DNA from: an uncultured Methanoregulaceae archaeon
GTDB taxonomy: Archaea > Halobacteriota > Methanomicrobia > Methanomicrobiales > Methanospirillaceae
Length of the DNA: 64,000 nucleotides
Reading direction: 5' to 3'
NCBI GenBank assembly: GCA_963701095.1
Contig: OY969564.1
Span: forward strand, 576,001 to 640,000
Shown here: in pieces, positions 11,785 to 28,011 of the stretch
How the letters are laid out: each line of letters opens with the position of its first letter
Position numbering within the stretch: position 1 is the first letter of the stretch
The notes under the pieces: generated by a model
The model's database searches: none
Told to the model about the DNA's origin: nothing
The model's input: only the letters and a program-made list of their open reading frames with translations
Position numbers and translations under genes: made by a program

Positions 11785-12738
11785 TTACTCTGATTCGGGC
11801 ATATTGAGTATCGTCCGTATCTTCTGTTGGGTTTCCTTTGGTGTTCCTGTCGTATTTAGCAGATAGCAATCTGTCCGTTCGACAAGATCCCGGATATATT
11901 GATTCCGGAGCGTGGTTTTACGTGCTTCTTTTACTAGAAGATGCGGATTAAAGTATTCGTTCGCCTCGAAGAATGCACAGGCATCCTCTTTCTCCAGCTC
12001 GCACAGGGTTCGCGAATCAGCCGTGTCCCGGTGCAGGACGACAAGTGTGGTTAGAGTCGTAAGAGGTAACAGCCGGCCTTTTCCTACCACCCACCTGATA
12101 TCAGCTACAGCCCTTCCATCTGCATCATACTCATTTGCAGCAACAAGACCGTCGAATTCCTTCCAGATTGCAGAAAGATCCTGCCGGATGTAGAAATTCC
12201 GTTCCGAGCCGTATGCAAGAATCTCCGGACCGAAGATCCGGGTAAAGAACCAATCGTCGGAAATAATCCGGGCGCACGGATCGCGAAGAAGACCATACGT
12301 CTGGGTGGTCTTTCCCGCACCGGAAACCCCGACCATGCCAAGGCCTTTTCCTCCGATATCTACACAGGCTCCATGGATTGAGCTGATACCATGTTCGTCC
12401 TCAAGAATATCGCCGCAGAGGCCAAGTGCAATTGACTTGATCCAACCGTAGTAGGTAAAGTTGAACAGAAACGCGGTCTTGGTGTATGGGTCGAATTGTA
12501 CGGTGTTTTCCTCGTATGATGGATCAGAAAACACGTACAACCTGCCGTGAGACCGGATATTCTGGGACATCGGGGAAAAGTTCTCCTGCCATGTCTCAAG
12601 CAGTGTTCTGTTGTCAGAAATCAGTTTGATACAACAACCGAATATCTCCGATTTGATCTCGTACTTTATCCGGGGTGCACAACGTACGGCGAGCTGCTCT
12701 TTTTCTTCAGGGGAAATCAGGAGTATGGTATAGGGCAT
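11785..12738 (-). CDS. HPr-kinase/PEPCK-like P-loop protein
   Basis: IHGACV..GVSGAGKTT..IISDD motifs. Confidence 0.7.
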   Translation of the reverse strand: MPYTILLISPEEKEQLAVRCAPRIKYEIKSEIFGCCIKLISDNRTLLETWQENFSPMSQNIRSHGRLYVFSDPSYEENTVQFDPYTKTAFLFNFTYYGWIKSIALGLCGDILEDEHGISSIHGACVDIGGKGLGMVGVSGAGKTTQTYGLLRDPCARIISDDWFFTRIFGPEILAYGSERNFYIRQDLSAIWKEFDGLVAANEYDADGRAVADIRWVVGKGRLLPLTTLTTLVVLHRDTADSRTLCELEKEDACAFFEANEYFNPHLLVKEARKTTLRNQYIRDLVERTDCYLLNTTGTPKETQQKIRTILNMPESE

Positions 12739-12884
12739 CGAACGACCTCACATATGATGATCTTCATTCTTGATAAGCCGCCTACCGGTATAGGATGCTT
12801 TCGGTCGGGAGAAAGTCAGCCCGAACAATAAAAAAATAATTTCGAACCAAATCACAAAAAGAAGTATTCCAGGAATAATAGAGG

Positions 12885-13586
12885 TTACGATTGTATATGG
12901 CTGCCGTCGCAGAACGGTTTGTTTCCGGATTTCCCGCACCGGCAGAGCGTAACACGGTTCCTGACAATGTACGGTTTGCCCTCTTCAGAAGTGACTGGTA
13001 TGCTGCCTCTTACCCAGATAGGGCCGTGCTCCCCCCGAGGTGGGTATTCGATAAGTGCAATTGACTTTTCCAGTTCCGGCTCGATAATTTTTCCGGTTTT
13101 CTTGTCCCGGATCACAAGTCTTCCTGAGGGACAGTGGCATGATTCTTCAATTGCCGTTGATTTTGCCTTCGGGACATCCGAGGCTTTGGTGAGGTTCCAG
13201 ATCCCACCGGCCCGCATGCAGAACCGAGCATGGACACAGAGGTTCTCGAAATCATCCAGTTCAAGTTCGGGCCCCGATATGACCCGGGGGTGAAGGAGAT
13301 ACGATTCGTTTCCAGCAGTTTCTTCACCGTTAAAATGGATCTTCACGTGCGTTCCGTCACAAAACGGCTTATTCTGTGAATGGCCGCACCGACAAAGGGC
13401 ATACATTTCTTGTTCAGGAAATTGTTTTACCTTTCGCCAGGTATGGCAGTTTCCTTCCTTGTCGTTACAGATCTCTTCCTGTTGCAAAGGAACGTTCCCC
13501 GTGACAATATAGGGGCCATTCTTCGTTACGGTAATCTTCATAGAATCGGTTTTTGGTTCCTGATTGTTTTTGGGTATTTCTGTCAT
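12885..13586 (-). CDS. CDGSH iron-sulfur protein (two CDGSH domains plus a central divergent 4Fe-4S domain)
   Basis: LCRCGHSQNKPFCDGTH, LCVHARFC, CPSGRL, LCRCGKSGNKPFCDGSH. Confidence 0.92.
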   Translation of the reverse strand: MTEIPKNNQEPKTDSMKITVTKNGPYIVTGNVPLQQEEICNDKEGNCHTWRKVKQFPEQEMYALCRCGHSQNKPFCDGTHVKIHFNGEETAGNESYLLHPRVISGPELELDDFENLCVHARFCMRAGGIWNLTKASDVPKAKSTAIEESCHCPSGRLVIRDKKTGKIIEPELEKSIALIEYPPRGEHGPIWVRGSIPVTSEEGKPYIVRNRVTLCRCGKSGNKPFCDGSHIQS

Positions 13587-13742
13587 GGAGATTATTCCTG
13601 TCCCTCTGTAAATATGTACCTTCTTTGTTACAATCTTGAATTGCCCTGCCGGAGAATAATGGTTTTCTAGGTTAAACCCGGGAAAATGAAAGGAGGATAT
13701 GATGGGTAAAAAACGACATCATAGGGAAAAAGAGGGGGTATT

Positions 13743-14300
13743 TTATTGATTGAACTGTATGTCAAAGTAGATGCTTTTTCCTGATGCTCTAAGGGGGATC
13801 CCGTAAGCAACGCTGCAACCCTTAAGATATCCGGCTTTGAGGGCCACAAATCCCGCCGTGAACATTATCCGGTTGTCGACATTATGGATCGATGCCGTCT
13901 TCACTGCTGATCCAACGGCAATACCAAGGTCAGATATCTTGAGAACACAGTTAGGTCCGGCATACGCAAAGTCCTTGTTCTTCCGGGTCTTCTGCGCTTT
14001 TACCATGTCTGCGCATGTTGAATGCCCGCAGCCGCCGCAGTTGATGCCAAGTGTTTTTTGACCCTCGACACCGATAAGAACCGTAGCATCGCTTGCTTTC
14101 ACCTGTTCACCGTTGATCCGGAGAAAATCCATACCGGTCTCTTTTGCGGTTGCTATCATTTTGTTCCCGAGTGCCGTCTGTTCTTTACCGGAGAGCACTT
14201 CAATTTTTATCGAGTCAAGGCCGCAGGCTTTCGGTGCTGTTCTTGCAGCAAGCGCCATGAGACCAGCAACATTCATTACTGCATCAGATTCAGTTGTCAT
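13743..14300 (-). CDS. DUF2148 ferredoxin-like domain protein
   Basis: AARTAPK, NCGGCGHSTC, DLGIAVGSA, VDNRIM, GKSIYFD. Confidence 0.85.
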   Translation of the reverse strand: MTTESDAVMNVAGLMALAARTAPKACGLDSIKIEVLSGKEQTALGNKMIATAKETGMDFLRINGEQVKASDATVLIGVEGQKTLGINCGGCGHSTCADMVKAQKTRKNKDFAYAGPNCVLKISDLGIAVGSAVKTASIHNVDNRIMFTAGFVALKAGYLKGCSVAYGIPLRASGKSIYFDIQFNQ

Positions 14301-14349
14301 ACCGGGAAATTAACTTCGTCAGGTAATAAACCATAAGGTATTCAGGCTG

Positions 14350-14673
14350 TCATCCTGTCGAGAGAGCCGATCTTGTATCACTACTGAAGCTGTTGCACTG
14401 GATAGCGCGGTCGGTTCGGACAAAGGAAAGTACGTACCTCTGTCGCTCGTAGTTACGCAGGAGATCGTAAATTATACCAGGGAATGGGTGATAATGTGGC
14501 GTTACAACTGCAGCCGGGTGGAACTCATTGTGAAATGACGTTTCCGTTAAACGTTGGCGGGTGATCTCAACAAGGATTTTTTTGAGAGCAATAAGCTCAT
14601 TAAGCGTAGCGGGATATTCCTTATCATCGATAACCATTTCGATCTGCTCAACAACTTCATTCATCCGGGTCAT
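14350..14673 (-). CDS. Hypothetical protein
   Basis: 107-aa ORF with ATG, purine-rich upstream sequence; no recognisable motif. Confidence 0.45.
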   Translation of the reverse strand: MTRMNEVVEQIEMVIDDKEYPATLNELIALKKILVEITRQRLTETSFHNEFHPAAVVTPHYHPFPGIIYDLLRNYERQRYVLSFVRTDRAIQCNSFSSDTRSALSTG

Positions 14674-14984
14674 GATATTCCACTTTCTCCTTTCAACTCT
14701 GGATTTTACAAAATAGATGTCAGCTGGGGATTATATATAATAGAAAAATTGGTAGGGTTCTTTTGATTAAAGGGATGGTAGGGTGTTTGAACCACCGGGT
14801 TATATGGAAATTTCCGAACATCCCGACAATCCCAAAAACGATGTGAAACAGATGGATTTGCCAGAAATCTAAAAAACACTACCGTATATCCTGATGTGAC
14901 GGAACCTATAAACGGGATCAGAAGAAATTTATGCAAACTCTTATCTCCGGTTGCTGGGAATCCTACAATATCATTTCCGGCACG

Positions 14985-15638
14985 ATGAGATACCGCACCG
15001 GGAGCGCGACAAAAACGTCTGCACCATCACCAAAGACACAACCTGAACTCTCCGGAGAAGATGCCACCCTTCTTACACTTTACGCCCTCGCCGGAGAGGA
15101 ATGCGGAGAACTCATTACGCTTCATCCCCATCTCTTCCGATTCATCCGTCAACACCTTTTAGCGCTTGGACATACCGCTCTTACCCACCCGGCCTCACAT
15201 GATGTTGAAGTCCGGGAACTCTCCATCCATGAAATGAACCGTGCCGAAGAGGAACTCTGGATCCACGATAACCGACAGAAAGCAGATACCGAGACTGACC
15301 GGTTGTTTGCGGCGTTCTCCGGGACGCAGCTTGTCGGTGTAGCACGTTGTTCCCGGCACCCGGACTGGTATGAAGTTGACAGCGTCTATGTGCTCGAAGA
15401 ATACCGGCATCAGGGATTTGCCAGGCTGGTCATGAAACGGCTTATCGAAGAATGCGGCCGTCATGAAACACTCCATCTGCATGCAAAGCCGGAACTAGTT
15501 GATTTCTACCGGGAGATGGGGTTTGTTCCGGTCCAGTCCCCAGAGATACCAGAAACGATCCGGCCAGAGTCTGATGCATATGGCTCCGTGGAAAACAGCA
15601 CCTGTTCAATGAAACGCGACCCTTCTCCCGGCTCATAA
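14985..15638 (+). CDS. GNAT family N-acetyltransferase
   Basis: VYVLEEYRHQGFA acetyl-CoA motif, FYREMGF; start uncertain. Confidence 0.8.
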   Translation: MRYRTGSATKTSAPSPKTQPELSGEDATLLTLYALAGEECGELITLHPHLFRFIRQHLLALGHTALTHPASHDVEVRELSIHEMNRAEEELWIHDNRQKADTETDRLFAAFSGTQLVGVARCSRHPDWYEVDSVYVLEEYRHQGFARLVMKRLIEECGRHETLHLHAKPELVDFYREMGFVPVQSPEIPETIRPESDAYGSVENSTCSMKRDPSPGS

Positions 15639-15747
15639 GCGCGAAATAAAGACTGGTATATGGTGGATGAATGATATCACACATCAGGTCACGGTATTTG
15701 GCAGATAAACAGTATCTGAACAAATCCATGTTTAAGGAAATGGTTGA

Positions 15748-17696
15748 ATGATCGGCCTTTTCTTCAATATCGTAATCCTCATCTTCCTTGCCGGCATCGC
15801 CATCGCTCTCTTGGGCGCGGGGCGCGACGACTCCGTCATTCGCACACTCTCGCTTGCCTGCACTGCCGGAGCTTCGGCACTGCTTGCCCTTTTTGCGCTT
15901 TTCATACTTGTCACCGGTACTTCTGTTACCGTTATCGCATGGCAGCCATTTCCCGGCTTTCAAATTGCATTCTTTATTGACCGGCTTGCTGCGTTTTTCC
16001 TCTTTCTTATCAGCATAGTTACCGTGTGTGTCGCAACATACAGCACGGAGTATATCGATCATATGGACGGAGGAACCCGGCGCAATCTTTTGTGCGGCTG
16101 CATCGGTACCTTCGTGCTCGCAATGGTCCTTGTCGTGGCCTCACAAAACACGATCTCCTTTCTCTTGTTCTGGGAGCTCATGGCAGCGATCTCCTTTATT
16201 CTCGTGATGTATGATTATACGCACGCCGAAACCAGAAAAGCAGGGATCTTTTATTTTGTGATGACACAGCTCTCTACCCTCTTTGTGATATTTGGGGTAA
16301 TCGCTCTTTTTGTCGCAACAGGTTCGTTTGCAATCGCCCGGATAACGGTACCGGCCGCGTCGACGCCACTGGTAACTGCCGGGTTTCTTTCGCTCTTTAT
16401 CGGTTTTTCCATAAAGGCTGGCATCATCCCTTTCCATAAATGGCTCCCATATGCCCACCCGGCAACCCCAACACCGGTCTCAGCACTCATGTCAGGTATT
16501 ATGCTCAAGGTAGCAGTCTATGGTCTTCTCCGGTTCGTCATTACCGTTTTTTCTCCGGATGCCTGGTGGGGTGAGTTGATACTTGCCGCTGGTATAACAT
16601 CAGCAGTCCTCGGAGTCATCTATGCGATCAAGGAAGATGACATAAAAGGCCTTCTGGCATACTCGAGCATAGAAAATATCGGCATTATATTTGTTGGTAT
16701 AGGCCTCTATGTCATCTTTTCCTGTTCAGGACTTGCCCTGCTTGCGACTATCAGCCTGCTTGCCGCACTTTTCCACTCCCTTAACCATGCGTTGTTTAAA
16801 AGCCTCCTTTTCCTTACGGCCGGGTCCGTGGTGCACGCTACACATACGCGAGATATCGAAAAAATGGGCGGACTTGCCGGAAAAATGCCCCTAACCTCAG
16901 CCCTCTTTTTTACCGGTGCTGCTGCCATTGCCGCTCTTCCGCCGCTTAATGGTTTTGCGAGCGAGCTTTTGATCTATACGGCATTCTTTGAATCTGTCGC
17001 TGTCGTCAATCCCCTCCTCAAAGTAATCCTGTTTATATGTCTTGCTCTCTTTGCTTTGACAAGCGCTCTTTCCGCAGCCTGCTTTGTGAAAGCCTTTGGC
17101 TCCATTTTCCTTGCCAGGCCGCGGTCTGTCGCATGTGATAATGCGACTGAAGTGGGTCTCGCGATGCTCGCAGGCCCTGCTGTCCTCGCTGCATTATGTG
17201 TGGGCCTTGGTGTCTTCTCGTACCAGATTTTTACTGCGTTCGGTTATGTCCTACCAATACCTGACCTGCTGGTAATAAGCCTCCTTCTCCTATTCATGGG
17301 ACTACTTACCTACGGCATCCTGTATTTTACCTCTTTCCGGGAAAGCAGGATCAGTGAAACCTGGGGATGTGGTGCACGATCCCTTTCCTCGTCGACAGAA
17401 TATACCGGCCACGGTTTCTCGGAACCAATCGTTACCATCTTTTCATCCATATACCGGACAAAAAAGACCAGCACCAAAACCTATTATGATGACCATGACC
17501 TCATCTTTGATTCGGGAACCGCTGAATCCGGTTGGTAAAATTCTTCGAGGAATACCTGTACCTGCCCATTTCCCGGGGAGCTACCCAAGCTGCAAGCTTT
17601 ATCGTCCGCATGCAGAACGGGTGCCTTGACACGTATATCCTCTATGTTTTCTTGGCTGTTGTGGTCGTCATCGTTTTGTTAGGGGTGCTTTTATGA
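15748..17696 (+). CDS. hyfB: Ehr/Hyf antiporter-like membrane subunit (HyfB/NuoL-like), 1-nt deletion near 17527
   Basis: FWELMA, KAGIIPFHKWLP, LLAYSSIEN, HALFKSLLF, TWGCG; after the shift the frame continues LVKFFEEYLYLP...MQNG to TGA 17696, overlapping the next ATG. Confidence 0.88.
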
Positions 17697-18634
17697 CCGC
17701 GGATTTTCTTATCTATGGTATCATCAATACGATTTTTGTCGTTCTTGTTGCCCCGCTGTTTGTGAGCCTTGTAAAGAAGATCAAGGCGTGGACACAGGGT
17801 CGGCGGGGTCCTTCAATCTTCCAGACGTATTATACGTTCCTGAAACTGTTCCAAAAGGAAGTCATCTTTTCCCCCAACGCGTCCTGGATCACCCGGGTCA
17901 CACCGTGGGTCTGCATTGCCGCTATCCTGACCGCTTCGCTCTTTGTCCCTCTGGTCTATGTGACTTCGCCGGCGGCAGGTATAGGAAATATCATCCTTTT
18001 CCTGTATCTCCTGGTGCTCGCCCGGTTCCTTATGGCCCTCTTGGGTCTTGATGCCGGGAGTGCTTTTGGCGGTATGGGCAGTTCACGTGAAATGAGTGTT
18101 GCAGCGGTCATAGAACCCACCACCATCATTGTCTTTGCTGCACTTGCCTTTGTCTTTAAATCGCTCAATATTATTGACATGGCAGCGACGGCCGCCACGA
18201 CCGGTACACCGGTTACCCCGACGCTGATTTTGCTTGGCATTTCCCTTTTCATCATCCTGATTGTCGAGACTGCACGTATCCCGGTTGATAACCCGGAGAC
18301 CCATCTCGAACTGACCATGATCCACGAAGGTATGATCCTCGAACAGTCCGGAAGGAATCTGGCAATTCTGGAGATCTCGTCTGCAATCAAGCAGACTGTC
18401 CTGATGGCACTCCTCATCAACCTCATTGTCCCCTGGGGGATAGCCACTTCGCTCCTGCCTTTTGTTCTTGCAACTGCAATCGTTCTTTTTATCATAAAAG
18501 GTGCCATTCTTGCCCTTTTCATGGGGCTCTTTGAATCGTCCATGGCAAAGATGCGATTCTTCAGATTGCCGAACCTTTTCATGATGGCGTTCTTTTTCTC
18601 GACGCTTATTATTATCATTGAGGTGTTTGCATGA
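17693..18634 (+). CDS. hyfC: Ehr/Hyf NuoH-like membrane subunit
   Basis: QGRRGPS, FGGMGSSRE, ETARIPVDNPETHLELTMIHE. Confidence 0.92.
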   Translation: MTADFLIYGIINTIFVVLVAPLFVSLVKKIKAWTQGRRGPSIFQTYYTFLKLFQKEVIFSPNASWITRVTPWVCIAAILTASLFVPLVYVTSPAAGIGNIILFLYLLVLARFLMALLGLDAGSAFGGMGSSREMSVAAVIEPTTIIVFAALAFVFKSLNIIDMAATAATTGTPVTPTLILLGISLFIILIVETARIPVDNPETHLELTMIHEGMILEQSGRNLAILEISSAIKQTVLMALLINLIVPWGIATSLLPFVLATAIVLFIIKGAILALFMGLFESSMAKMRFFRLPNLFMMAFFFSTLIIIIEVFA

Positions 18635-19323
18635 CGGATCCTGCATATTTAAACGGTATCGTCAAGGTTCTGTTCGTCTGCGTGATTATTACGTCTGCGT
18701 ATATCATAACAACAAGAAACCTCATCAGTCTGGTCCGGGTATATGCACTCCAGTCACTTGCACTTGTCGCAATAGCCCTTTCACTTGCCTGGTACGAAGC
18801 TGATTCCGTCCTCCTTGCTATTGCTATCATTACGTTGGTTTTCAAGGTGTTCCTGATCCCTTACTTCATCGCGACCATTCAGGAAAAAATCCGGATCAAA
18901 CGGGATATTGACTTCCATTTCCTGAGCCCTACCAGTTCGTTGTTAATTTCGCTTGCTCTGATGATTGTCGTCTATATCATGCTCTCACGGATCTTCCCGG
19001 ACATGATGGTAAAAGGCAGTCTATTTTTCTTCGGGGCTGTTATCGGGATCTCGCTTGTCCTGATGGGGATGATGGTCACCTTTTCCCGTAAACGGGCAAT
19101 AACCAAAGTACTGGGCTACTTATCGATGGAGAATGGTGTTCTGCTTTTTGGTATTTTTGCCACCGAGCTTCCGTTCATAATTGAGTTCCTGATCATCATC
19201 GATCTTGTCATCCTCATTATCCTGACCACCATCCTTACCGTAGGGATCGATTCCACGCTTGAGGAGTACCATAACCGGCTTCACCGGTTCTATCTCTGGG
19301 AAGAACAGGAGGAAGCAACATGA
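18631..19323 (+). CDS. hyfE: Ehr/Hyf HyfE-like membrane subunit
   Basis: YALQS, KVFLIP, GYLSMENG; operon position. Confidence 0.85.
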   Translation: MTDPAYLNGIVKVLFVCVIITSAYIITTRNLISLVRVYALQSLALVAIALSLAWYEADSVLLAIAIITLVFKVFLIPYFIATIQEKIRIKRDIDFHFLSPTSSLLISLALMIVVYIMLSRIFPDMMVKGSLFFFGAVIGISLVLMGMMVTFSRKRAITKVLGYLSMENGVLLFGIFATELPFIIEFLIIIDLVILIILTTILTVGIDSTLEEYHNRLHRFYLWEEQEEAT

Positions 19324-20801
19324 TCCTGATCGCTTTTGCCATCTGTGCCCTTGCTGCAATTGTGCTTGTTGCACTCAGCCACACCAACCTGCAGATGAAT
19401 GCAGCTGCGGTCGGGCAGTCAATTGTTTATCTTGCGATCACCGTTTACATTCTCCTCTTTGTCCAGATCCCGGTGAATAATTTCATCGTGGGAAGCGGAT
19501 ATTTCTTCATCGACCATCTCGGCCTTCTGGAAGTGATGGTTGCGACCTGTATTTTCCTTCTCGCAGCCATATATGCCCGGGGATATGTCAGTAATCTGCT
19601 GGCAAACCGTGAGCTGGAACCAGGCAGCCTGAAACTTTTCTATGCCTCCTGGTGCCTGCTTGAACTGGTAATTGTCCTTGCCTTTTTCTCTGACAATCTT
19701 GCGCTGTTCTGGATATTTGCAGAAATGACGACAATCCTTTCCGCGTTGCTGGTTGCCATTCTTTCAGCAAAGGAAAACATCGATGCAGCGCTCAAATATA
19801 TTTTCGTTGCATCGACGGCAATGATTTTTGCTTTTGTCGGTCTTATCTTCCTTTATGAGATATCACTCTCAACGCTTGGCACTGGTACGCTAAACTGGAC
19901 TGTTTTAATGCAGCGCGCTTCAACGTTTCCTGCCGGCATGGTGACTGCTGCATTTATGTTTGTTTTTATCGGGTTTGCCGCAAAATCCGGTATCTTCCCG
20001 TTCCATACGTGGCTTCCGGAAGCCCATGCAAAGGCCCCTTCAGCCGTGAGTGCCGTTCTCTCGGGCGTGCTCCTGAACATAGGAATCTATGGTATCATCC
20101 GGGTCTTTGCGATCGCTCATCAGGCCCATGACCTGGCTGTTCTTACCCCGGTACTCCTGATATTTGCCATTTTCACAATAGCTATTGCGGCAATCTCGAT
20201 GCTTGTCGAAAAGAACCTAAAAAAACTGATCGCGTTTTCAAGCATCGAGAATATGGGCATCATTCTCGCCGGTATAGCCGTGGCCTCACCGCTCGCAATC
20301 TTCTGGGTGCTTTTCCAGATTATCGGGCATGCCCTGACAAAAGCTTCACTCTTTTTCTCGGCCGGCATCCTGCACCGGCAGTACCGGAGCCATATTTCGC
20401 CGGATGCTCCTGATGATATTCATGACGTTTTTAAGTTTCAGCCGCTTGCTGCCTGGGGTATCATCCTTGGAGGCCTTTCAATCATCGGTATACCTCCTTT
20501 CATGGTATTCTTCTCAAAATTCTTTATCCTGCTTTCGCTAGGATCTCTCTCTCTAGGAACACTTGCGGTTGTCCTTGTCCTCCTTTTTATAGCTGCTGCA
20601 GCTTTCGGGTATTTCGTGATAAAGGCATTCTGTCGTACTACACCGTCCGGTGAAATTGACGACCTTGCAGCCTACCGGACCCCCCTTTCCATGGAAGTAC
20701 CCATCGTGATACTCCTTACCCTTGTCCTTATTCTCGGACTTATGTTTCCAGCTGGGGGCACCGCATTCCTTAACCAGATAGTGATGGAGCTGAAGTTCTG
20801 A
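19320..20801 (+). CDS. hyfF: Ehr/Hyf antiporter-like membrane subunit (HyfF/NuoM-like)
   Basis: WIFAEMTT, AALKY, KSGIFPFHTWLPEAH, AFSSIENMG. Confidence 0.9.
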   Translation: MILIAFAICALAAIVLVALSHTNLQMNAAAVGQSIVYLAITVYILLFVQIPVNNFIVGSGYFFIDHLGLLEVMVATCIFLLAAIYARGYVSNLLANRELEPGSLKLFYASWCLLELVIVLAFFSDNLALFWIFAEMTTILSALLVAILSAKENIDAALKYIFVASTAMIFAFVGLIFLYEISLSTLGTGTLNWTVLMQRASTFPAGMVTAAFMFVFIGFAAKSGIFPFHTWLPEAHAKAPSAVSAVLSGVLLNIGIYGIIRVFAIAHQAHDLAVLTPVLLIFAIFTIAIAAISMLVEKNLKKLIAFSSIENMGIILAGIAVASPLAIFWVLFQIIGHALTKASLFFSAGILHRQYRSHISPDAPDDIHDVFKFQPLAAWGIILGGLSIIGIPPFMVFFSKFFILLSLGSLSLGTLAVVLVLLFIAAAAFGYFVIKAFCRTTPSGEIDDLAAYRTPLSMEVPIVILLTLVLILGLMFPAGGTAFLNQIVMELKF

Positions 20802-22383
20802 TGAGCGTACAAAAACTACAGCACGAAAATATCGCCATAACAGTAGTCCAGGAAATCTTCGGTTCTGATGCTGTACCTGCCCGGATCTCGATTGGATGCA
20901 GCGGAGAATGCTCTATAAGCCCGACCACACCGGAATTTGACCGGGCCATTCTCATCCTTGCCAGACATAAATTTGTCCTTATAGGCCTGTTCTGTTCCGA
21001 ATGCCCTGACGGTTCAGGCCATATGCTCCGATATGTTTTTGAACACCGCGACAACCTCCTCGTTCTTGTCAGGCATATCGCCGGAAAACAGGCTATGTCT
21101 GTCGCGACGATCTTTCCCTCGGCTACTTGGCCGGAGCGGGAATGCCGTGATCTGTTTGGCATCAGGTTTGGGGGTGCGTTTGACACCCGGCGCCTTGTAC
21201 TTCATGAAGAATATCCGGAAGGATTCCATCCGCTGGAAAAATCCTGTCCCAACATACCGGTTACTCCAATAAACGCGACAGATACCTATCAATTCCGGAT
21301 GGTCAGTGGCGAGGGTGTCTACCAGGTCCCGGTCGGACCGGTCCATGCCGGTATTATCGAGCCCGGGCATTTTCGGTTCAGCGTGATTGGAGAGACTGTG
21401 TTCAATCTCGAGATCCGCCTGTTCTATACCCATCGCGGTATTGAGAAACTGGCGGAAGGAAAGAATCCGGCAGACTGCATGAAAATTGCCGAAGCCGTCA
21501 GCGGCGACGAATCGGCGGCAAACGCGACCGGGTTCTGTATGGCGGTTGAACGGCTTTCCGATATCATGGTGCCTGACCGTGCCTGGCACCTTCGGACTGT
21601 TTTCTGCGAGTCCGAACGGATCTGTTCCCATCTCGGCGATTTAGCTGGCATGTTGACCGATGTCGCGTTCCCTCTTGGAGCAAGTCAGTTTGCGGTATTG
21701 CGCGAGGAGATGTACCGCGAGAACGAGAAGATTTCCGGCTCCGGTTTCTCCGGGGCATGATCTGCCCCGGTGGCGTGATGCAGGATATTCCTGATGGAAC
21801 TCTGGCCGGTTTCAAGGATTATCTTGTGCGGTTCAAAAAGCAGTTCAGGATCGGGTTATCCATAGTACTTTCGACGACATCGGTGATAGACAGGTTCGCG
21901 CAAACCGGTATTATCAGAAAGCCACTGCTTGCGCCACTCAATATCACCGGGCCGGTCGCACGTGCATCGGGAGGGGAACGGGATGTGCGGGTGGACCATT
22001 CGTACGGCATCTATGACAGGTTTGTTCCTACGCTCCATCTTCTGAACGATGGCGATGTTCTTGCCCGGTTTACGGTAAAGGCTGCAGAGATCCTGGATGC
22101 ACTTGACCTGATTGAACGGGTTATCGCCGCAATTCCTGACGGGCAGATTTGCAGTACTGAACAAATCCGCGACGGTAGTGCACTGGCACTCGTGGAATCA
22201 CCCCGGGGGCAGAATCTTTGCTGGGTTGAGATACAAGAAAAAAAGATCTATCGGTACAAAGTAAGGACTGCATCGTACTGCAACTGGCTTGCACTTGAAC
22301 ACGCTGTACCCGGCAACATTATCGCAGATTTCCCGGTGATCAATAAAAGCCTGAACCTGTCATATGCCGGGACAGATCTCTGA
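20801..22383 (+). CDS. Ehr large subunit (NuoC+NuoD/HyfG-like) without NiFe ligands, 1-nt deletion near 21741
   Basis: ERECRDLFGI, GPVHAGIIEPGHFRF, THRGIEK; AEAVSGD and SLNLSYAGTDL replace the two CxxC NiFe motifs. Confidence 0.9.
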
Positions 22384-22394
22384 GGTGAGATAGG

Positions 22395-22913
22395 ATGGTT
22401 AACGCATTTTCCTGCCTGCTAAAAAAGGAAGTTACCGGTACTCTTCCGTTAAAAGATGATGAAATTGAAAAACTTGGTTATGAAATCCGGCAGGAGATCA
22501 ACGCCCGGTTCGGCAGGAGTCTTGCTATCCGGGAGCTGGATGCAGGTAGTGACAATGCGGCAGAGATCGAAATAAACAACCTCAACAATGCGTTCTATGA
22601 TGTGGAACGTTTCGGTATCACGTTTGTAGCCTCCCCCCGCCATGCAGATGTCCTGATGGTAACCGGTGCTATTACCCACAATATGGCTACTGCTGCCCGG
22701 AAAACCTACGATGCAATGCCGTCTCCCAAGTTTGTCATTGCCGTGGGCGACGATGCCTGCAATGGCGGCATCTACCAAGGAACATACGCAGTCCTTGGTG
22801 GAGCAGACAAGATCCTGCCGGTGGATTTGAAAATACCCGGTAATCCACCGACACCTCTCAAGATTCTTACCGGTCTACTTGCCCTGATGCGATATGCCGG
22901 GAAAAAATCGTGA
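22395..22913 (+). CDS. Ehr small subunit (NuoB/HyfI-like), canonical Cys ligands replaced
   Basis: ERFGITFVASPRHADVLMVTG, PKFVIAVG, PVDLKIPGNPP; GAGGTGA RBS. Confidence 0.9.
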   Translation: MVNAFSCLLKKEVTGTLPLKDDEIEKLGYEIRQEINARFGRSLAIRELDAGSDNAAEIEINNLNNAFYDVERFGITFVASPRHADVLMVTGAITHNMATAARKTYDAMPSPKFVIAVGDDACNGGIYQGTYAVLGGADKILPVDLKIPGNPPTPLKILTGLLALMRYAGKKS

Positions 22914-22989
22914 GAACAAACGACAATTAATCGCAAATTTTTGTTAATATTTCTTTTCCGCTTTTTGGCTTTATTTCCCTCGTCTTTTT

Positions 22990-25593
22990 TTATTTGTTTG
23001 AAGTAAATCGGTACTTTCCCTTCTGAACGTTAATCTCGAACCGGGCACCTTTCCCGGGCAAACCGTTTTCAGTGATGGTACTACCGGTAATTGACAGGAT
23101 CTCACGTGACAGGAACAAACCGAACCCGGTGTTCTTCCCAAAACCCCGGGTAAACAGTCGTTTTTTATCTCCCTGATATATCCCCACGCCATCATCTTCG
23201 CAGATCAGGGCAAGCCCGGACGCCGCTTCCTGCGACCACACACGGATACAGGTCATAGCATCGCCACCGTACCTGAGCGCATTGTCGATGAGGTTATAGA
23301 ATACCTTCTCAAGAAGCGGATCTGCCAGGATCTCAAGATCGATTCGGTCGACTTGAACCTTCACACTCCTCATCGGAAGCTGTGTTGCAGCATGCATAAC
23401 AACCTCATTCACGTTCTGCCATGCAGCGGACTGTATCCCCATATCCTGATAATCCCGGGTGAACGCGATCTGGCGTTCAATCGTATCGATAACCTTCTCC
23501 TCTTTTTTGAGGAATTCAAGGATAGCCGGTTCCTGAATGTGCCTTCGGGAGAGTACCAGGTAACCTCGAAGGGAGAGCAGCTGGTTAAGAATATCGTGCC
23601 GGGTGATGCCGGAGAGGAGGTTGAGTTTCCTGTTTGCTTCCCGTATCGCATCTTCCATTATCCGGCGCCCGGTGATATCTTGAACGGTCCCGTGTAGCTG
23701 AACAACATTTCCCCCTTCATCGCATTTCACTCCTCCAAAGACATGGATCCACATACTCGTGCGATCGGCTCGGAAAATTTCCAGTTCAAGGTTGAATGGA
23801 TTTCCTTTGGTTAGCGCCGTTTCGATGGCTTTTTTGAGTTTATTCCAGCTCTCCGGAGTAAAATACCGTTCGAGTTCTGCATGAGTAGGAGCATGCCTTG
23901 GCGTGTCCTTTCTGATCATTCTGTAAAGTTCATCGGACAGAATAACGGTATCAGCATCCCGTGACCACTCCCATATCCCGATTTGAGCGAGACGGTATGC
24001 TTTATTTCGTTCTTCCTGAGCTGCCGCAAGCTGTTTATTTTTCTCCCGTAACTCAAGCTCTGTCTGCCGGTGTCCAGTGATATCGATGGCAACCCCAAGC
24101 ACCGCTGGTTTTTCGCAGCCCGGAAGAGAAAACGGGACTTTTGTTGTCTGGAGATGCCGTTGATTCCCGTACGCGTCAATATAGAGCTCCTCGGGAATGA
24201 ACTTGATCTGTCCTGTTGCAATGACCTCCCGATCATCCTCCAGCATCTGGCGGAGTTCTTCCTCATCCTTGTGAAAAAGCGCATGAGACTTCCCTTCGAG
24301 TTCGTTGACCGTAGTATTATATCCCTCTGCCACAGCCCGGTTTGCAAGGATATACTTTCCATCATAATCCTTGGCAAAGATCATGTGTGGAACGAGATCG
24401 ATAATCTGCCGCAGCTGGGCTTCCCTGCTTTTGAGTGCCTCCACATATTGTTTACGTTCGGTGATATCTCTGGCTTCTATGATGAGCAACCGTATGGAAT
24501 TGTCAGCTCCGAATACTGGTTTGAGGGAAAAGTCAACCTGCATCGTGGTATGGTCCAAACCCTGCAGCTCAGCTTCATAACGGACAAAGTTCCCGGAAGC
24601 TGCGTTGCGGATCCCTTCCTGTAACTCCCTGATTCCTGCCTCATCTCCCTTCCACCAAGGAGTTTCCCAGAAGGGGAGATTTATAACGTCTTCCATCCGA
24701 GCACCGATAAAACTCAGTGCCGTTCTGTTGGCATCAGTCAGGATTCCCTCCGGTGTCATCATACCAGTAAACTGGAAGGTACTGTCAAAGATTGCCCGCA
24801 TCTTGCTCTCGCGATCCCTGAGTGCTTCTTCTGCCTTCCTGCGTGCCGTCACATCACGGAAGACTACATGCACAGCGGGTTTATTCCTCCAAGCAAACGG
24901 TCGTGCTACCACATCCACATCGATAACGCTCCCATTCTTCCGGATAAATTTTTCCTGAATAACCGGCAGGTTCTCTTCAGTTGCAGATACTGATCGCTTA
25001 CGCACCAGTTCACGGTAAGCAGGGTGCACAAAAGACAGGAGTGGTTTCCCTATGATCTCATCGGATTTTTCTGCACCCATGAGTTTGAAGGCCGTGGCGT
25101 TTGCATAGACAATTAACCCATCCTGGTGAATCACAATACCGTCAAAGGAGGTTTCCACGAGGATCCGGTATTTCTCTTCACTCTCGCGCAATGCATACTC
25201 ATGAGCACGTTCTTCCTGTCTCCGCGAGACCGCCTGGCGGATCTTGTGCGCCAGCTCGGCAAACTGTGCCGTTGGATCTCCGCCTTTCTGGAGATAGAAG
25301 TCCGCGCCTGAATTAATGGCATCTATTACAACCTCTTCGCGTCCTCTTCCGGTAAACAGGATAAACGGGAGGGTATTTCCCGACCCTTTTAACATTTTTA
25401 GAAATGCGATTCCATCTATATCCGGCATCTTGTAATCGGAAATGATGGCATCGTATGTTTTAGTATTCAAAAGAGTAAGTGCATCCCGGGCAGAAGTAGT
25501 GATATCAATGCTGAACTGTCCGCTCTGCTCGAGAAAGAGTTTGCCTATTTCAAGCAGGCCGGGTTCGTCATCGACGTAGAGAACATTGTACAT
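22990..25593 (-). CDS. Hybrid REC-PAS(x4)-histidine kinase
   Basis: VLYVDDE/ISDYKMP receiver, repeated PAS-PAC ends (DVT/DIT), RHDILNQL H-box, NLIDNA, DDGVG, GFGLF. Confidence 0.92.
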   Translation of the reverse strand: MYNVLYVDDEPGLLEIGKLFLEQSGQFSIDITTSARDALTLLNTKTYDAIISDYKMPDIDGIAFLKMLKGSGNTLPFILFTGRGREEVVIDAINSGADFYLQKGGDPTAQFAELAHKIRQAVSRRQEERAHEYALRESEEKYRILVETSFDGIVIHQDGLIVYANATAFKLMGAEKSDEIIGKPLLSFVHPAYRELVRKRSVSATEENLPVIQEKFIRKNGSVIDVDVVARPFAWRNKPAVHVVFRDVTARRKAEEALRDRESKMRAIFDSTFQFTGMMTPEGILTDANRTALSFIGARMEDVINLPFWETPWWKGDEAGIRELQEGIRNAASGNFVRYEAELQGLDHTTMQVDFSLKPVFGADNSIRLLIIEARDITERKQYVEALKSREAQLRQIIDLVPHMIFAKDYDGKYILANRAVAEGYNTTVNELEGKSHALFHKDEEELRQMLEDDREVIATGQIKFIPEELYIDAYGNQRHLQTTKVPFSLPGCEKPAVLGVAIDITGHRQTELELREKNKQLAAAQEERNKAYRLAQIGIWEWSRDADTVILSDELYRMIRKDTPRHAPTHAELERYFTPESWNKLKKAIETALTKGNPFNLELEIFRADRTSMWIHVFGGVKCDEGGNVVQLHGTVQDITGRRIMEDAIREANRKLNLLSGITRHDILNQLLSLRGYLVLSRRHIQEPAILEFLKKEEKVIDTIERQIAFTRDYQDMGIQSAAWQNVNEVVMHAATQLPMRSVKVQVDRIDLEILADPLLEKVFYNLIDNALRYGGDAMTCIRVWSQEAASGLALICEDDGVGIYQGDKKRLFTRGFGKNTGFGLFLSREILSITGSTITENGLPGKGARFEINVQKGKYRFTSNK

Positions 25594-25814: not shown

Positions 25815-26069
25815 ATGGGCAGGACATTTTCCAGTATCCGGCTGGGTGTTAACAACATGGCGGACCGGTGGGCCCGGTCAGCCCGGGCACTCAAAAAGGA
25901 GGGCCGGAAGTATGGCGAGCGTCTCGTGGAACTTGTAAAAACGCATTCGAGTGAAGCATTTGTGGCTTGCGATGACCCTCTCGAAGCCGTAGTCTTCTCT
26001 GCACTTGTCGAAATCTTCAAACGCCAGGACCGGCTTGAAGCAGGGGTTGAGAAATATGTGGATTCTTGA
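25815..26069 (+). CDS. Small helical PolB2-associated protein (arCOG07300-like)
   Basis: MGRTFSSIR...DPLEAVVFSALVE pattern; overlaps the polB start. Confidence 0.7.
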   Translation: MGRTFSSIRLGVNNMADRWARSARALKKEGRKYGERLVELVKTHSSEAFVACDDPLEAVVFSALVEIFKRQDRLEAGVEKYVDS

Positions 26070-28011
26070 TACCGCATACCGGGATGGAGGTATCGATCTC
26101 TGGACAAAGGAGAGGGGCACCGTAACAAAAGTTCACCGCGCGTACATCCCGGAGTTTTATGCCCGGTTCCACGACCCGCACACCTACCCGGATATGATCG
26201 CGGCACTGGAAAAACGGTATGGCGCCAGGGAATGCACCATCCGCACCATTTTTGGGGAAGACAAAGGCTGGGCGATCTCTGCCGGCCGGGAAGTAGCCGA
26301 AACTATCGAACACCAGGTGCAGTACGCGGTTGATCTCTATAATGTGGACGTGCGCAGGGATCAGCGTTTCATGGCAGAACAGGGAATTGTTCCCTGCACC
26401 GGGGAACGCGATGACCGGTTTTCCCCGGAAATTTCCCATGATCTGGCTATCCTTGAGATCAGGATCCGTGGCAACCCTTCCATAACCACGTCTTGCACCG
26501 ATGTAGAAGTTATCCACGGACGAACAGAGCGGCTTACCGGCAAGACAAAGGCAGTACTTGTGGATCTTTTCGGTCTTGTTGGATCATATAACCCTGATGT
26601 GATTCTTATGCCGGACGCTGATACGTGGATGTCGAAGATCCGGACCCTCGCGCAGCAGTATAACCTTATAATGCCCTTCTCTCGGAACGGAAAGTACCGG
26701 CAGATGGATTCCCGTTCGTACTGGAGTTACGGGAGAATGGAGCATAAGGCGGCCGCACTTGTCCCGGACGGCCGTATCCTCATTGATACGGAACAATCGT
26801 TTGTCTACCATGAGGGTGGACTCGACGGCGTTCTTATGGCAGCCCGGCTTTCGGGGATCTCCCCCAACCTCGCGTCCCGGTTCACGCCAGGAACACTCAT
26901 CAGCAGTTACGAGACTTACGAGGCGATAAAAAAAGGCATCGGAGTACCATTCCGCAAGAGCGACCCGGAGCTGGTGCGGAAGCTTCCCGCACTTCTGGCT
27001 GCCGACCGGGGCGGAATGATGTTCCAGCCAAATCCAGGAGTCTTTGAAAATGTCGATGAAATCGATTTTACCTCCATGTACCCCTCCATCATCGTACAAT
27101 CAAATCTCTCACCGGAAACAATCGGTCACACGGAACGCGCAGGATTTCTTCCCGCCGTGCTTAAACCGTTACTTGATCTCCGTATCGCGACAAAACGGCT
27201 CAAAAAAACCGATCCCCGGTTTGCCGGCACCGATGCGATTCTCAAGTGGATGCTTGTGACCTGCTTTGGGTATACCGGTTACAAGAATGCAAAGTTCGGA
27301 AGAATTGAAGTGCACGAAGGTATCACCAGAACGTCACGGGAAATACTGTTGCAGACAAAAAAGATCGCTGAAACCATGGGCTTTCGCGTGCTGCACGGTA
27401 TCGTCGACTGTCTCTGGGTACAGGGAACGCCAGTCAATGCACTGATGGAACAAATCGAGAAAACGATCAGTCTCTTCATTGAGGCCGACCATTTCGACTG
27501 GATCGTTTTCCTGCCCCTTGCAGACGGGTTTGGTGCGTACAACCGGTATTATGGCAGGCAGCCTGACCAAAGTATTAAAGTCCGGGGGATAGCAGCACGC
27601 AGACACGATACACCAGCGTATGTTCGGGAGATGCAGCGTCGTATGTTGTATATTATGAAACGGGCAGCAACCATCACAGAGCTCATACAGGTAAAAGATG
27701 AGATTTCCGGTATTTTCTGGCAGGCTGTCGCGGACCTTCCTAACGCGGACCCGGAACAGATGACAATCAGTCGCCGGATTAGCCGGCTGACGTACACTCA
27801 CCGATGCCTTGAAGGTGCAGCGGTTCAGGCATACCGGGATCGGGGAGTTACGGTATCTCCCGGTATGAAGATTCAGTATACCGTGACCGATGCCTCCCGG
27901 TACCAGGTAGCCCCTGCATGGTGTGCAGACACCTTCGATCCAGAGTTCTACCGCGGGCTTCTCGATCGGGCATACGCCGAAATCACGTTTGCGTTTGCCG
28001 GATCGTACTGA
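26056..28011 (+). CDS. Family B DNA polymerase, PolB2 group
   Basis: Motif A EIDFTSMYPSII, motif B LKWMLVTCFGYTGY, altered motif C HGIVDC; no Exo I-III motifs recognised. Confidence 0.9.
   Translation: MWILDTAYRDGGIDLWTKERGTVTKVHRAYIPEFYARFHDPHTYPDMIAALEKRYGARECTIRTIFGEDKGWAISAGREVAETIEHQVQYAVDLYNVDVRRDQRFMAEQGIVPCTGERDDRFSPEISHDLAILEIRIRGNPSITTSCTDVEVIHGRTERLTGKTKAVLVDLFGLVGSYNPDVILMPDADTWMSKIRTLAQQYNLIMPFSRNGKYRQMDSRSYWSYGRMEHKAAALVPDGRILIDTEQSFVYHEGGLDGVLMAARLSGISPNLASRFTPGTLISSYETYEAIKKGIGVPFRKSDPELVRKLPALLAADRGGMMFQPNPGVFENVDEIDFTSMYPSIIVQSNLSPETIGHTERAGFLPAVLKPLLDLRIATKRLKKTDPRFAGTDAILKWMLVTCFGYTGYKNAKFGRIEVHEGITRTSREILLQTKKIAETMGFRVLHGIVDCLWVQGTPVNALMEQIEKTISLFIEADHFDWIVFLPLADGFGAYNRYYGRQPDQSIKVRGIAARRHDTPAYVREMQRRMLYIMKRAATITELIQVKDEISGIFWQAVADLPNADPEQMTISRRISRLTYTHRCLEGAAVQAYRDRGVTVSPGMKIQYTVTDASRYQVAPAWCADTFDPEFYRGLLDRAYAEITFAFAGSY

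What the first reader, a model, noticed from the sequence alone, without database searches (positions are those of the whole stretch)
22395..22913. NuoB/HyfI-like small subunit with all four [4Fe-4S] cysteines replaced
Seen: the canonical GSCNGCE / VGDCA / IPGCPP motifs read GSDNAAE (D53 GAC, A56 GCA), VGDDAC (D120 GAT) and IPGNPP (N150 AAT). Each codon differs from TGY at two or more positions, so these are not single-base errors. The flanking sequence (SPRHADVLMVTG etc.) is well conserved and the ORF is intact. Only C7 and C122 remain. Inference: the cluster site was lost under continued selection on the fold. Asp/Asp/Asn in the pocket could bind a hard cation or a small ligand instead.
Basis: partly seen in the sequence, partly recalled or inferred. 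Interest (0 to 1): 0.82.

Follow-up and report, generated by a model that had tools for sequence, protein, structure and literature searches.

The report
Cluster-less small subunit of Ehr complex
This gene encodes the NuoB-like small subunit of a known but functionally unexplained hydrogenase-related membrane complex (Ehr) in a Methanoregula-type methanogen; the complex has lost its iron-sulfur and nickel-iron sites yet is strongly conserved, so it probably moves ions without moving electrons.

Summary
ORF 22395-22913 (+) is a 172-aa PF01058/NuoB-fold protein. Its four [4Fe-4S] ligand positions read D53, A56, D120 and N150, and short-read contigs from four public runs show the same codons.

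It is not a lone outlier. It is ehrS, the last gene of a six-gene ehrABCDLS-type operon (15748-22913). The large subunit has also lost all four NiFe cysteines (replaced by S, E, S, G), and the operon has no ferredoxin-like (NuoI/HycF) subunit.

The D-x-x-[A/T/P] / D(E) / N signature, together with C122, defines a conserved clade. It covers Methanomicrobiales, Methanosarcina/Methanosarcinales, Dehalococcoidia and Ca. Moduliflexus. dN/dS is 0.07-0.19, and the predicted fold matches MbhJ (TM 0.90).

The antiporter-like and NuoH-like subunits keep their coupling residues. The best reading is a redox-cofactor-free ion translocator whose former metal pockets are now conserved carboxylate/amide sites. 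Cation binding at those sites was not tested.

The Ehr family is in print, and M. hungatei ehrABCDLS is named. This scan has also met cysteine-less Ehr small subunits many times on other DNA. I class it as a new member of a known kind.

The apparent split of the large-subunit gene in the window is a one-base assembly error.

The parts
22395..22913 (+). ehrS: NuoB/HycG-like small subunit, 172 aa, with all four [4Fe-4S] ligand positions replaced (D53, A56, D120, N150)
22551..22562 (+). codons D53-N54-A55-A56 (GAC AAT GCG GCA), replacing the C-x-x-C of the first ligand motif
22749..22760 (+). codons D119-D120-A121-C122 (GAC GAT GCC TGC); D120 replaces the third ligand; C122 is kept in 11 of 12 orthologues
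22842..22844 (+). codon N150 (AAT), replacing the fourth ligand in IPGCPP
20801..22383 (+). ehrL: NuoC-NuoD/HycE-like large subunit. NiFe motifs read AVSGDESAAN and NLSYAGTD, so all four Cys are lost. It appears as two ORFs in the window (20801-21760, 21757-22383) only because of a 1-base assembly deletion
21740..21741 (+). site of the missing C (C-run): contigs of 4 of 4 public runs carry one more C here, which restores a single large-subunit frame
19320..20801 (+). ehrD: HyfF/NuoN/MbhH-like antiporter-type subunit. TM5 Glu, TM7 Lys and TM11/TM12 Lys are kept; the TM8 Lys is Asn
18631..19323 (+). ehrC: HyfE-like small membrane subunit
   Evidence: NF008556, 3.4e-20, below its cut-off
17693..18634 (+). 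ehrB: NuoH/HycD-like subunit; the SSRE motif and the PVDNPETHLEL...HEG loop are kept
15748..17538 (+). ehrA: HyfB/HycC/NuoL-like antiporter-type subunit with its hallmark charged residues kept
14931..15638 (+). GNAT acetyltransferase gene directly upstream on the same strand. It is co-located in 7 Methanomicrobiales loci, the window included, but not outside that order. Whether it belongs to the system is uncertain

Best explanation
The gene is ehrS, the NuoB-like small subunit of an Ehr (energy-converting-hydrogenase-related) complex of a Methanoregula-type methanogen. Shown: the protein keeps the NuoB/MbhJ fold but has no ligands for the proximal [4Fe-4S] cluster. Its partner large subunit has no ligands for NiFe. 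The operon has no NuoI/HycF-type ferredoxin subunit. All six genes are syntenic and under purifying selection across Methanomicrobiales, and the same signature occurs in Methanosarcina, Dehalococcoidia and Ca. Moduliflexus. The two antiporter-like subunits and the NuoH-like subunit keep the charged residues and loop that couple the peripheral module to ion translocation in complex I, MBH and FHL. Inferred: EhrS carries no cluster and serves as the structural bridge between EhrL and the NuoH-like subunit. The former cluster pocket (D53, D119, D/E120, N150) and the former NiFe pocket (S, D, E / S, G in EhrL) have become conserved carboxylate/amide sites, holding water, protons or a cation. The complex works as a redox-independent ion translocator, either an Mrp-like cation/proton exchanger or a gradient-driven machine, rather than as a hydrogenase. 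The confidence of 0.6 is for the whole statement. On its own, the identity part (a cluster-less EhrS of a cofactor-free Ehr complex) would be about 0.9, and the mechanism about 0.5.
For: Ligand replacements. Fold. Operon content and absence of an FeS subunit. Large subunit against HycE (5.3e-72): RVCGICGFAH aligns to AVSGDESVAN and DPCYSCTD to NLSYAGTD. These replacement residues are invariant in 11 of 11 clade large subunits. Orthologues in 15 of 121 Methanomicrobiales genomes, G000 included. Same gene order in the 12 fetched loci, two of them cut by contig ends. Small-subunit signature conserved. dN/dS 0.07 (window-L016), 0.19 (L022-L023), 0.15 (L024-L027). Coupling residues kept in the membrane subunits. 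Own-genome paralogues keep four Cys. In Cys-poor relatives the pocket is refilled with polar or acidic residues, not hydrophobic ones: ligand 1 is D/S/N/T/E in 21 of 22 and ligand 4 is D/N/S in 19 of 22. No MrpE family hit in this genome, and the only other PF00361 gene lies beside the Cys-bearing paralogue (the genome is 86% complete). In print: M. hungatei ehrABCDLS Mhun_1817-1822 (PMC4704411, passages); its large subunit lacks NiFe cysteines and homologues occur in Methanosarcina (PMC2686161, passages); Ehr function unknown (PMC10284858, PMC4378227, passages).
Against: No experiment on any Ehr complex shows ion transport or the absence of metals; the function is inferred from sequence only. 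Ehr subunits of G. sulfurreducens were more abundant on formate, which the authors read as a link to formate/H2 metabolism (PMC7894505, passages). A redox partner encoded elsewhere cannot be excluded. PMC4704411 lists ehr among clusters that 'likely reduce Fd'. The TM8 Lys of ehrD is Asn, so not every canonical channel residue is kept. Pocket geometry was not measured because no model coordinates were available. Whether this clade's small subunit is a close relative of Geobacter EhrS was not tested directly.
Confidence: 0.6

Rival explanations
1. The rebuilt pockets form a new metal or substrate site that performs non-redox chemistry coupled to the ion channels. The most concrete version is energy-coupled CO2/bicarbonate conversion or transport together with a beta-carbonic anhydrase, working like DabAB or the cyanobacterial NDH-1 Cup systems.
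For: Conserved D/D(E)/N in EhrS and S/D/E/S in EhrL. A beta-CA (PF00484) lies within about 1.5 kb of the operon in 4 of 15 orthologue-bearing genomes, in two different arrangements: G041 and G101 upstream and divergent, G051 and G079 downstream and convergent. It is the only copy found in G041, G051 and G079. It also occurs in L029. Earlier notes of this scan report Ehr-CA pairing in CPR bacteria; those are leads, not evidence.
Against: In the window's own genome the only beta-CA found is about 149 kb away. It is far away or on another contig in 6 more genomes, not found in 2, and undetermined in 2. No CA was seen in the flanks of the Methanosarcina, Dehalococcoidia or Moduliflexus loci. The four adjacent cases come from only two genera. 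A CA next to a cation/proton exchanger would equally fit pH homeostasis.
Confidence: 0.2
2. A cluster or other redox centre still assembles through non-cysteine ligands (Asp/Asn plus C122), or electrons arrive from a partner encoded elsewhere, so the complex is still a ferredoxin- or formate-linked redox pump.
For: Asp ligation of a single iron of a [4Fe-4S] cluster is known in other proteins (recalled, not from a call). PMC4704411 and PMC7894505 (passages) treat Ehr as hydrogenase-like or formate-linked. Some other Cys-less small subunits carry an N-terminal ferredoxin-like domain (P0189, P0211, P0255, P0140).
Against: At most one thiolate (C122) is near the site, and it is Val in one orthologue. 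Ligand 2 is Ala, Thr or Pro. The NiFe site the cluster would serve is gone. This clade has no ferredoxin-like domain or subunit. No redox gene is conserved next to the operon across the clade.
Confidence: 0.07
3. The gene is a decaying remnant (pseudogene) of a hydrogenase operon, or the odd residues are sequence errors.
For: The window's large-subunit gene looks split, and the genome scores only 86% complete.
Against: The split is a one-base assembly error: all 4 runs have the extra C, and the two halves are in one frame in 12 of 12 relatives. dN/dS is 0.07-0.19. The signature is identical from archaea to Chloroflexota. The ligand codons are confirmed by independent contigs.
Confidence: 0.01

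Closest known systems
Ehr (Ech-/energy-converting-hydrogenase-related) complexes: M. hungatei ehrABCDLS (Mhun_1817-1822; PMC4704411, PMC2686161) and G. sulfurreducens EhrA-D/L/S (GSU0739-45; PMC7894505)
   Same: Six-gene cluster with a NuoL-like, a NuoH-like, a HyfE-like and a second antiporter-like subunit, plus large and small subunits. The large subunit has no NiFe cysteines. The host order is the same as M. hungatei, and homologues occur in Methanosarcina as PMC2686161 states.
   Different: Nothing that sets it apart as a kind. None of the passages I could read mention the complete loss of the small-subunit FeS ligands or the conserved D/x/D(E)/N plus SGDE signature. The two primary Ehr papers (Coppi; Marreiros et al. 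2013) were not available and may describe them. The named M. hungatei and Geobacter sequences were not compared directly.
HycG of E. coli formate hydrogenlyase (7z0s_G) and MbhJ of P. furiosus MBH (6cfw_J)
   Same: Closest solved relatives: 3.1e-30 and 9.7e-26 by sequence. The model superposes on MbhJ at TMt 0.90, rmsd 1.9 A. Same position in the operon, next to the large subunit.
   Different: Both bind the proximal [4Fe-4S] through four Cys, and here all four are replaced. HycG and MbhJ work with a NiFe large subunit and a 2x[4Fe-4S] subunit (HycF/MbhN); both features are missing here.
NuoB/PSST (cluster N2 subunit) of respiratory complex I
   Same: Same Pfam family and fold; the best PDB sequence hit is 5xtb_C at 3e-30. 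The SPRHAD, VTG and PVD-x-x-IPG-x-PP framework is conserved.
   Different: No N2 ligands. The partner large subunit is HycE-like and fused to NuoC. There is no N-module and no NuoI.
Mrp-type multisubunit cation/proton antiporters (works-like comparison only)
   Same: Antiporter-like PF00361 subunits with the conserved TM5 Glu, TM7 Lys and TM12 Lys/Glu. EhrA hits MrpA chains 7qru_A and 6z16_A at 1e-48 and 2e-45. No redox cofactor.
   Different: Mrp has no NuoH-, NuoD- or NuoB-like subunits. The Mrp-specific MrpE family was not found in this genome. It is not a member of that family.

Membership tests
PF01058 / NuoB-HycG-MbhJ small-subunit fold | Significant match to the family model, and the flavodoxin-like fold | tested here: met
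   Pfam 4.1e-26, 91.7 bits against a cut-off of 27. AF2 pLDDT 90.3. Foldseek 6cfw_J TMt 0.90, rmsd 1.9 A.
Functional FeS small subunit of complex I / group 4 [NiFe] hydrogenase | Four Cys ligands of the proximal/N2 [4Fe-4S] cluster (CxxC ... C ... C-P-P) | tested here: not met
   D53, A56, D120 and N150 lie opposite the four Cys of HycG. The same holds in all 12 Methanomicrobiales sequences and in 8 named clade loci.
Group 4 [NiFe] hydrogenase (whole complex) | Large-subunit motifs RxCGxCxxxH and DPCxxCxxH/R (quoted in PMC4378227) | tested here: not met
   AVSGDESVAN and NLSYAGTD against HycE. S229, E232, S516 and G519 are invariant in 11 of 11.
Group 4 [NiFe] hydrogenase (whole complex) | A 2x[4Fe-4S] ferredoxin-like subunit (HycF/MbhN/NuoI) in the module | tested here: not met
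   None of the seven ORF products of the operon matches such a family. None was found in the flanks of 7 clade loci. The rest of the genome was not searched for one.
Ehr complex | Group-4-hydrogenase/complex-I-like gene cluster (antiporter-like, NuoH-like, HyfE-like, large and small subunits) | tested here: met
   Same order in the 12 fetched relatives and in L029-L035.
Ehr complex | Large subunit lacks the NiFe-binding cysteines | tested here: met
Ehr complex | Orthology to a named ehr cluster (M. hungatei Mhun_1817-1822 or Geobacter GSU0739-45) | tested here: inconclusive
Orthologues occur in several Methanomicrobiales families and in Methanosarcina, as PMC2686161 describes for the M. hungatei operon. 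The named sequences themselves were not compared.
Mrp antiporter | Mrp-specific small subunits (MrpE/F/G) alongside MrpA/D | tested here: not met
   PF01899 was not found in the genome (completeness 86%). The operon instead contains NuoH-, NuoD- and NuoB-like genes.

The most novel reading that the evidence does not exclude
Both former metal pockets of the peripheral module have been rebuilt into one conserved carboxylate-rich site: EhrS D53/D119/D-E120/N150 and EhrL S229/D231/E232/S516. This site would bind a cation or a small substrate such as CO2/bicarbonate, and would act as the charge trigger that electrons provide in complex I. Ehr would then be a complex-I-shaped machine that couples ion flow to non-redox chemistry, in some lineages together with an adjacent beta-carbonic anhydrase. 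Several lineages that lost the cysteines separately also refilled the pocket with Asp/Glu/Asn/Ser, which would then be convergent evolution toward this site.
Probability: 0.15. Interest if true: 0.75.

Novelty: new member of a known kind. Interest (0 to 1): 0.35.

Why it matters
Ehr complexes are widespread in anaerobes, including methanogens, Geobacter, Dehalococcoidia and CPR bacteria. They are still drawn as hydrogenases in metabolic maps; PMC4704411, for example, lists ehr among clusters that 'likely reduce Fd'. This clade has no ligands for NiFe or the proximal FeS cluster and no ferredoxin subunit, yet it is under strong purifying selection. Such annotations should therefore not be counted as H2- or ferredoxin-converting capacity in methanogen energy budgets. 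The clade also offers a natural test of how a complex-I-type ion pump can run without electron transfer. Because Methanosarcina carries a 69%-identical orthologue and is genetically tractable (recalled), the question can be tested. The specific gene is an ordinary member of that family.

Tried and rejected
1. GNAT as a docking subunit: complex prediction with EhrL, EhrS and the GNAT as partner (collected) returned 'no answer' (score 0.00, controls not run). I draw no conclusion from it.

2. Expression: the look-up of sequencing runs listed no RNA holder. I draw no conclusion from it.

3. RNA control elements: an Rfam scan of 12000-24000 at E <= 1 gave only a sub-threshold snoRNA-like hit at 12750-12794 and no fluoride or other riboswitch upstream of the operon.

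4. Single origin of cysteine loss: the tree of 125 representatives (26 of 151 rows dropped as fragments or for a gap at a ligand site; ligand columns excluded) has only 122 columns and is mostly unresolved. Starred branches force at least 3 changes for the Cys0 group, and the best tree needs 10. I claim only 'more than one lineage'.

5. Pocket modelling: model coordinates do not reach the script box, so distances between D53, D120, N150 and C122 were not measured. That they converge follows only from homology to the ligand positions.

6. A conserved partner gene: flanks of 12 loci (the window plus 11 Methanomicrobiales relatives) and of 7 clade loci show none that is shared across the clade.

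7. The broad Cys-less alignment A2 was too diverse for the search for related loci, so the narrower A3 was used.

8. Literature: the primary Ehr papers (Marreiros et al. 2013; the Coppi Geobacter hydrogenase paper) are not held. Searches found no passage that states the FeS-ligand status of Ehr small subunits. That is not proof it is unpublished. No supplements were opened.

9. dN/dS for distant pairs is saturated (dS > 1 or undefined) and was not used.

10. My loose motif patterns mis-hit upstream text in 13 of 121 proteins for motif 1 and missed 16 for motif 2. Only the clean counts are quoted.

Full report
**Observation.** ORF 22395-22913 (+) is intact and encodes 172 aa with GSDNAAE, VGDDAC and IPGNPP. 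C7 and C122 are its only cysteines. The protein matches PF01058 at 4.1e-26 and the NCBIfam NuoB subfamily at 1.8e-37. In the phmmer alignment to E. coli HycG (7z0s_G, 3.1e-30), D53, A56, D120 and N150 lie opposite the four cluster cysteines. Contigs from four public DNA runs laid on 20801-22913 list no difference at these codons. X1, X3 and X4 cover the whole stretch. X5, from a second study, covers all of the codons except N150. X1 may be the source sample. The two other PF01058 genes of the same genome keep all four cysteines.

**Context.** The gene closes a co-directional cluster:
- 15748-17538: HyfB/HycC/NuoL-like
- 17693-18634: NuoH/HycD-like
- 18631-19323: HyfE-like
- 19320-20801: HyfF/NuoN-like
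- 20801-22383: NuoC-NuoD/HycE-like large subunit
- 22395-22913: the small subunit

No product matches a NuoI/HycF-type ferredoxin. Close homologues are named Methanoregula sp. by their sources, so the organism is a Methanoregula-type methanogen.

The large subunit appears as two ORFs in different frames in the window. In 12 of 12 related loci the two halves lie in one frame. Read-through gave one continuous ORF in 10 of these; my extraction failed for L018 and L027. The window lacks one C of a C-run, and contigs of all 4 runs carry the extra C behind 21740. The split is therefore an assembly error and the gene is whole.

**The large subunit has lost its metal site too.** Against HycE (7z0s_E, 5.3e-72), the motif RVCGICGFAH aligns to AVSGDESVAN and DPCYSCTD aligns to NLSYAGTD (using the intact orthologue from L016). 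In 11 large subunits from Methanomicrobiales, Methanosarcina/Methanosarcinales, Dehalococcoidia and Ca. Moduliflexus, several residues are invariant: S229, G230, D231, E232, A235, N236 and S516, Y517, A518, G519, D521.

**Is the pattern a clade?** Yes.
- Among the 120 closest proteins (76-93% identity) plus the query, IPGNPP occurs in 115 of 121, IPGTPP in 3, IPGDPP in 1, and 2 were not matched by my pattern. GSDNA[A/T]E matched in 108 of 121; the other 13 were mis-hits of my loose pattern.
- Orthologues (E <= 1e-65, 58-92% identity) occur in 15 of 121 sampled Methanomicrobiales genomes, G000 included, spread over four of the six families sampled.
- In 12 aligned sequences D53, N54, D119 and N150 are invariant, position 120 is D or E, position 56 is A or T, and C122 is kept in 11.
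- Of 80 named loci from species-representative genomes, 61 are canonical CCCC and 19 are Cys-poor.
- Eight of those 19 carry D-x-D-N plus C122: an uncultured Methanomicrobiales and a Methanoregulaceae MAG, two Methanosarcina, a Methanosarcinales MAG, a Dehalococcoidales MAG, Dehalogenimonas and Ca. Moduliflexus, at 62-79% identity.

More widely, 22 of 125 usable cluster representatives have at most one Cys at the four sites. The poorly resolved tree still needs at least 3 separate changes. In these proteins the pocket is refilled with polar or acidic residues. Ligand 1 is D/S/N/T/E in 21 of 22, ligand 3 is D/E in 13 and G in 7, and ligand 4 is D/N/S in 19.

**Selection and fold.** dN/dS is 0.07 (window-L016, dS 0.58), 0.19 (L022-L023) and 0.15 (L024-L027). 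More distant pairs are saturated. The AF2 model (pLDDT 90.3, pTM 0.82) matches MbhJ 6cfw_J at TMt 0.90 and rmsd 1.9 A. The gene is not decaying.

**Membrane arm.** EhrA aligns to HycC (4.4e-62), MbhH and MrpA, with the TM5 'WE', the TM7 Lys before PFHKWLP, the TM8 Lys and the TM11/12 Lys/Glu kept. The NuoH-like subunit aligns to HycD (2.4e-40) and keeps SSRE and the PVDNPETHLEL..HEG loop. EhrD keeps the TM5 Glu, TM7 Lys and TM11/12 Lys, but has Asn for the TM8 Lys. Apart from these two genes, the genome has one further PF00361 gene, beside the Cys-bearing paralogue. It has no MrpE match, at 86% completeness.

**Mechanism.** Shown: there are no ligands for NiFe or the proximal cluster and no ferredoxin subunit, the coupling machinery is intact, and the genes are under strong purifying selection. 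Inferred: EhrS holds no cluster and serves as the bridge between EhrL and the NuoH-like subunit. The former metal pockets are now conserved carboxylate/amide sites, and the complex moves ions without electron transfer.

Rival readings:
- A new non-redox catalytic site, possibly linked to beta-carbonic anhydrase. A beta-CA lies within about 1.5 kb of the operon in 4 of 15 genomes in two arrangements, and also in L029. It is about 149 kb away in this genome, and none was seen in the flanks of the non-Methanomicrobiales clade loci.
- A residual redox role through non-Cys ligands or a remote partner.
- Decay, which is refuted.

**Known or new?** The family is in print. M. hungatei ehrABCDLS (Mhun_1817-1822) is named in PMC4704411 (passages). 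PMC2686161 (passages) noted that its large subunit lacks NiFe cysteines and that homologues exist in Methanosarcina. Ehr complexes are described as lacking NiFe ligands and of unknown function in PMC10284858, PMC4378227, PMC6349859, PMC7304191 and PMC4758237 (passages). All Ehr subunits of G. sulfurreducens were detected by proteomics (PMC7894505, passages). A Desulfotomaculum Ehr keeps its cysteines (PMC3569383, passages). None of the passages I read mentions the small-subunit FeS ligands. The two primary papers were not available. This scan has already noted cysteine-less Ehr small subunits on other DNA many times: 30 findings for my word query, plus look-alike stretches in 91 windows of 89 genomes by sequence. 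I used those notes as leads only.

**Verdict.** This is a correct observation of an ordinary member of a known, functionally unexplained family, and I class it as a new member of a known kind. The value added here has four parts:
- the conserved D/x/D(E)/N plus SGDE signature is defined across an archaeal-bacterial clade;
- the whole module is shown to be free of cofactor ligands;
- the apparent split of the large-subunit gene is shown to be an assembly error;
- the facultative GNAT and beta-CA neighbourhoods are recorded.

Noticed in passing
window 21740-21760 (ehrL): The large-subunit gene is split into two ORFs by a missing C in a C-run. Contigs of 4 of 4 public runs have the extra C, so the record has a homopolymer assembly error here. 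The genome is one contig but scores only 86% complete, which suggests more such indels elsewhere.
   Followed up: yes
window 14931-15638 (+): A GNAT acetyltransferase gene lies directly upstream of ehrA on the same strand. The arrangement is shared by the window, L016, L017, L019, L022, L023 and L029 (three genera by code, plus one MAG), but is absent from the Methanosarcina, Dehalococcoidia and Moduliflexus loci. It has a conserved N-terminal EDxxLLTL motif and invariant Cys and His residues.
   Followed up: partly
L019:3-602, L029:569-1147, L024:9297-9872, L027:1939-2514; G101:C30:9027-9488: A beta-carbonic anhydrase (PF00484) lies within about 1.5 kb of the ehr operon in 4 of 15 orthologue-bearing Methanomicrobiales genomes, in two different arrangements, and also in L029. 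It is the sole copy found in three of the four genomes (G041, G051, G079). It is not adjacent in the window's genome, where it lies at G000:C1:449194-449655.
   Followed up: partly
proteins P0189, P0211, P0255, P0140 (alignment A2): Some other cysteine-less small subunits carry an N-terminal ferredoxin-like extension with CxxCxxC-type motifs, so different Ehr lineages have lost different parts of the electron wire.
   Followed up: no
window 19320-20801 (ehrD): The TM8 lysine of antiporter-like subunits (K in MbhH 'VIKIGGIY') is Asn here ('LLNIGIYG').
   Followed up: no
window 22990-25593 (-): A response-regulator / triple-PAS / histidine-kinase hybrid gene runs convergent to ehrS. A homologue sits in the same position in L017 only.
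   Followed up: no
window 13743-14300 (-) and 26005-28011 (+): A DUF2148 ferredoxin-domain protein lies upstream of the GNAT gene. A family-B DNA polymerase (NF004416, 6.4e-285) has its longest ORF starting at TTG.
   Followed up: no
L028 (uncultured Methanomicrobiales MAG): The ehr genes of this record are broken into many short ORFs, probably by frameshift errors like the one in the window.
   Followed up: no
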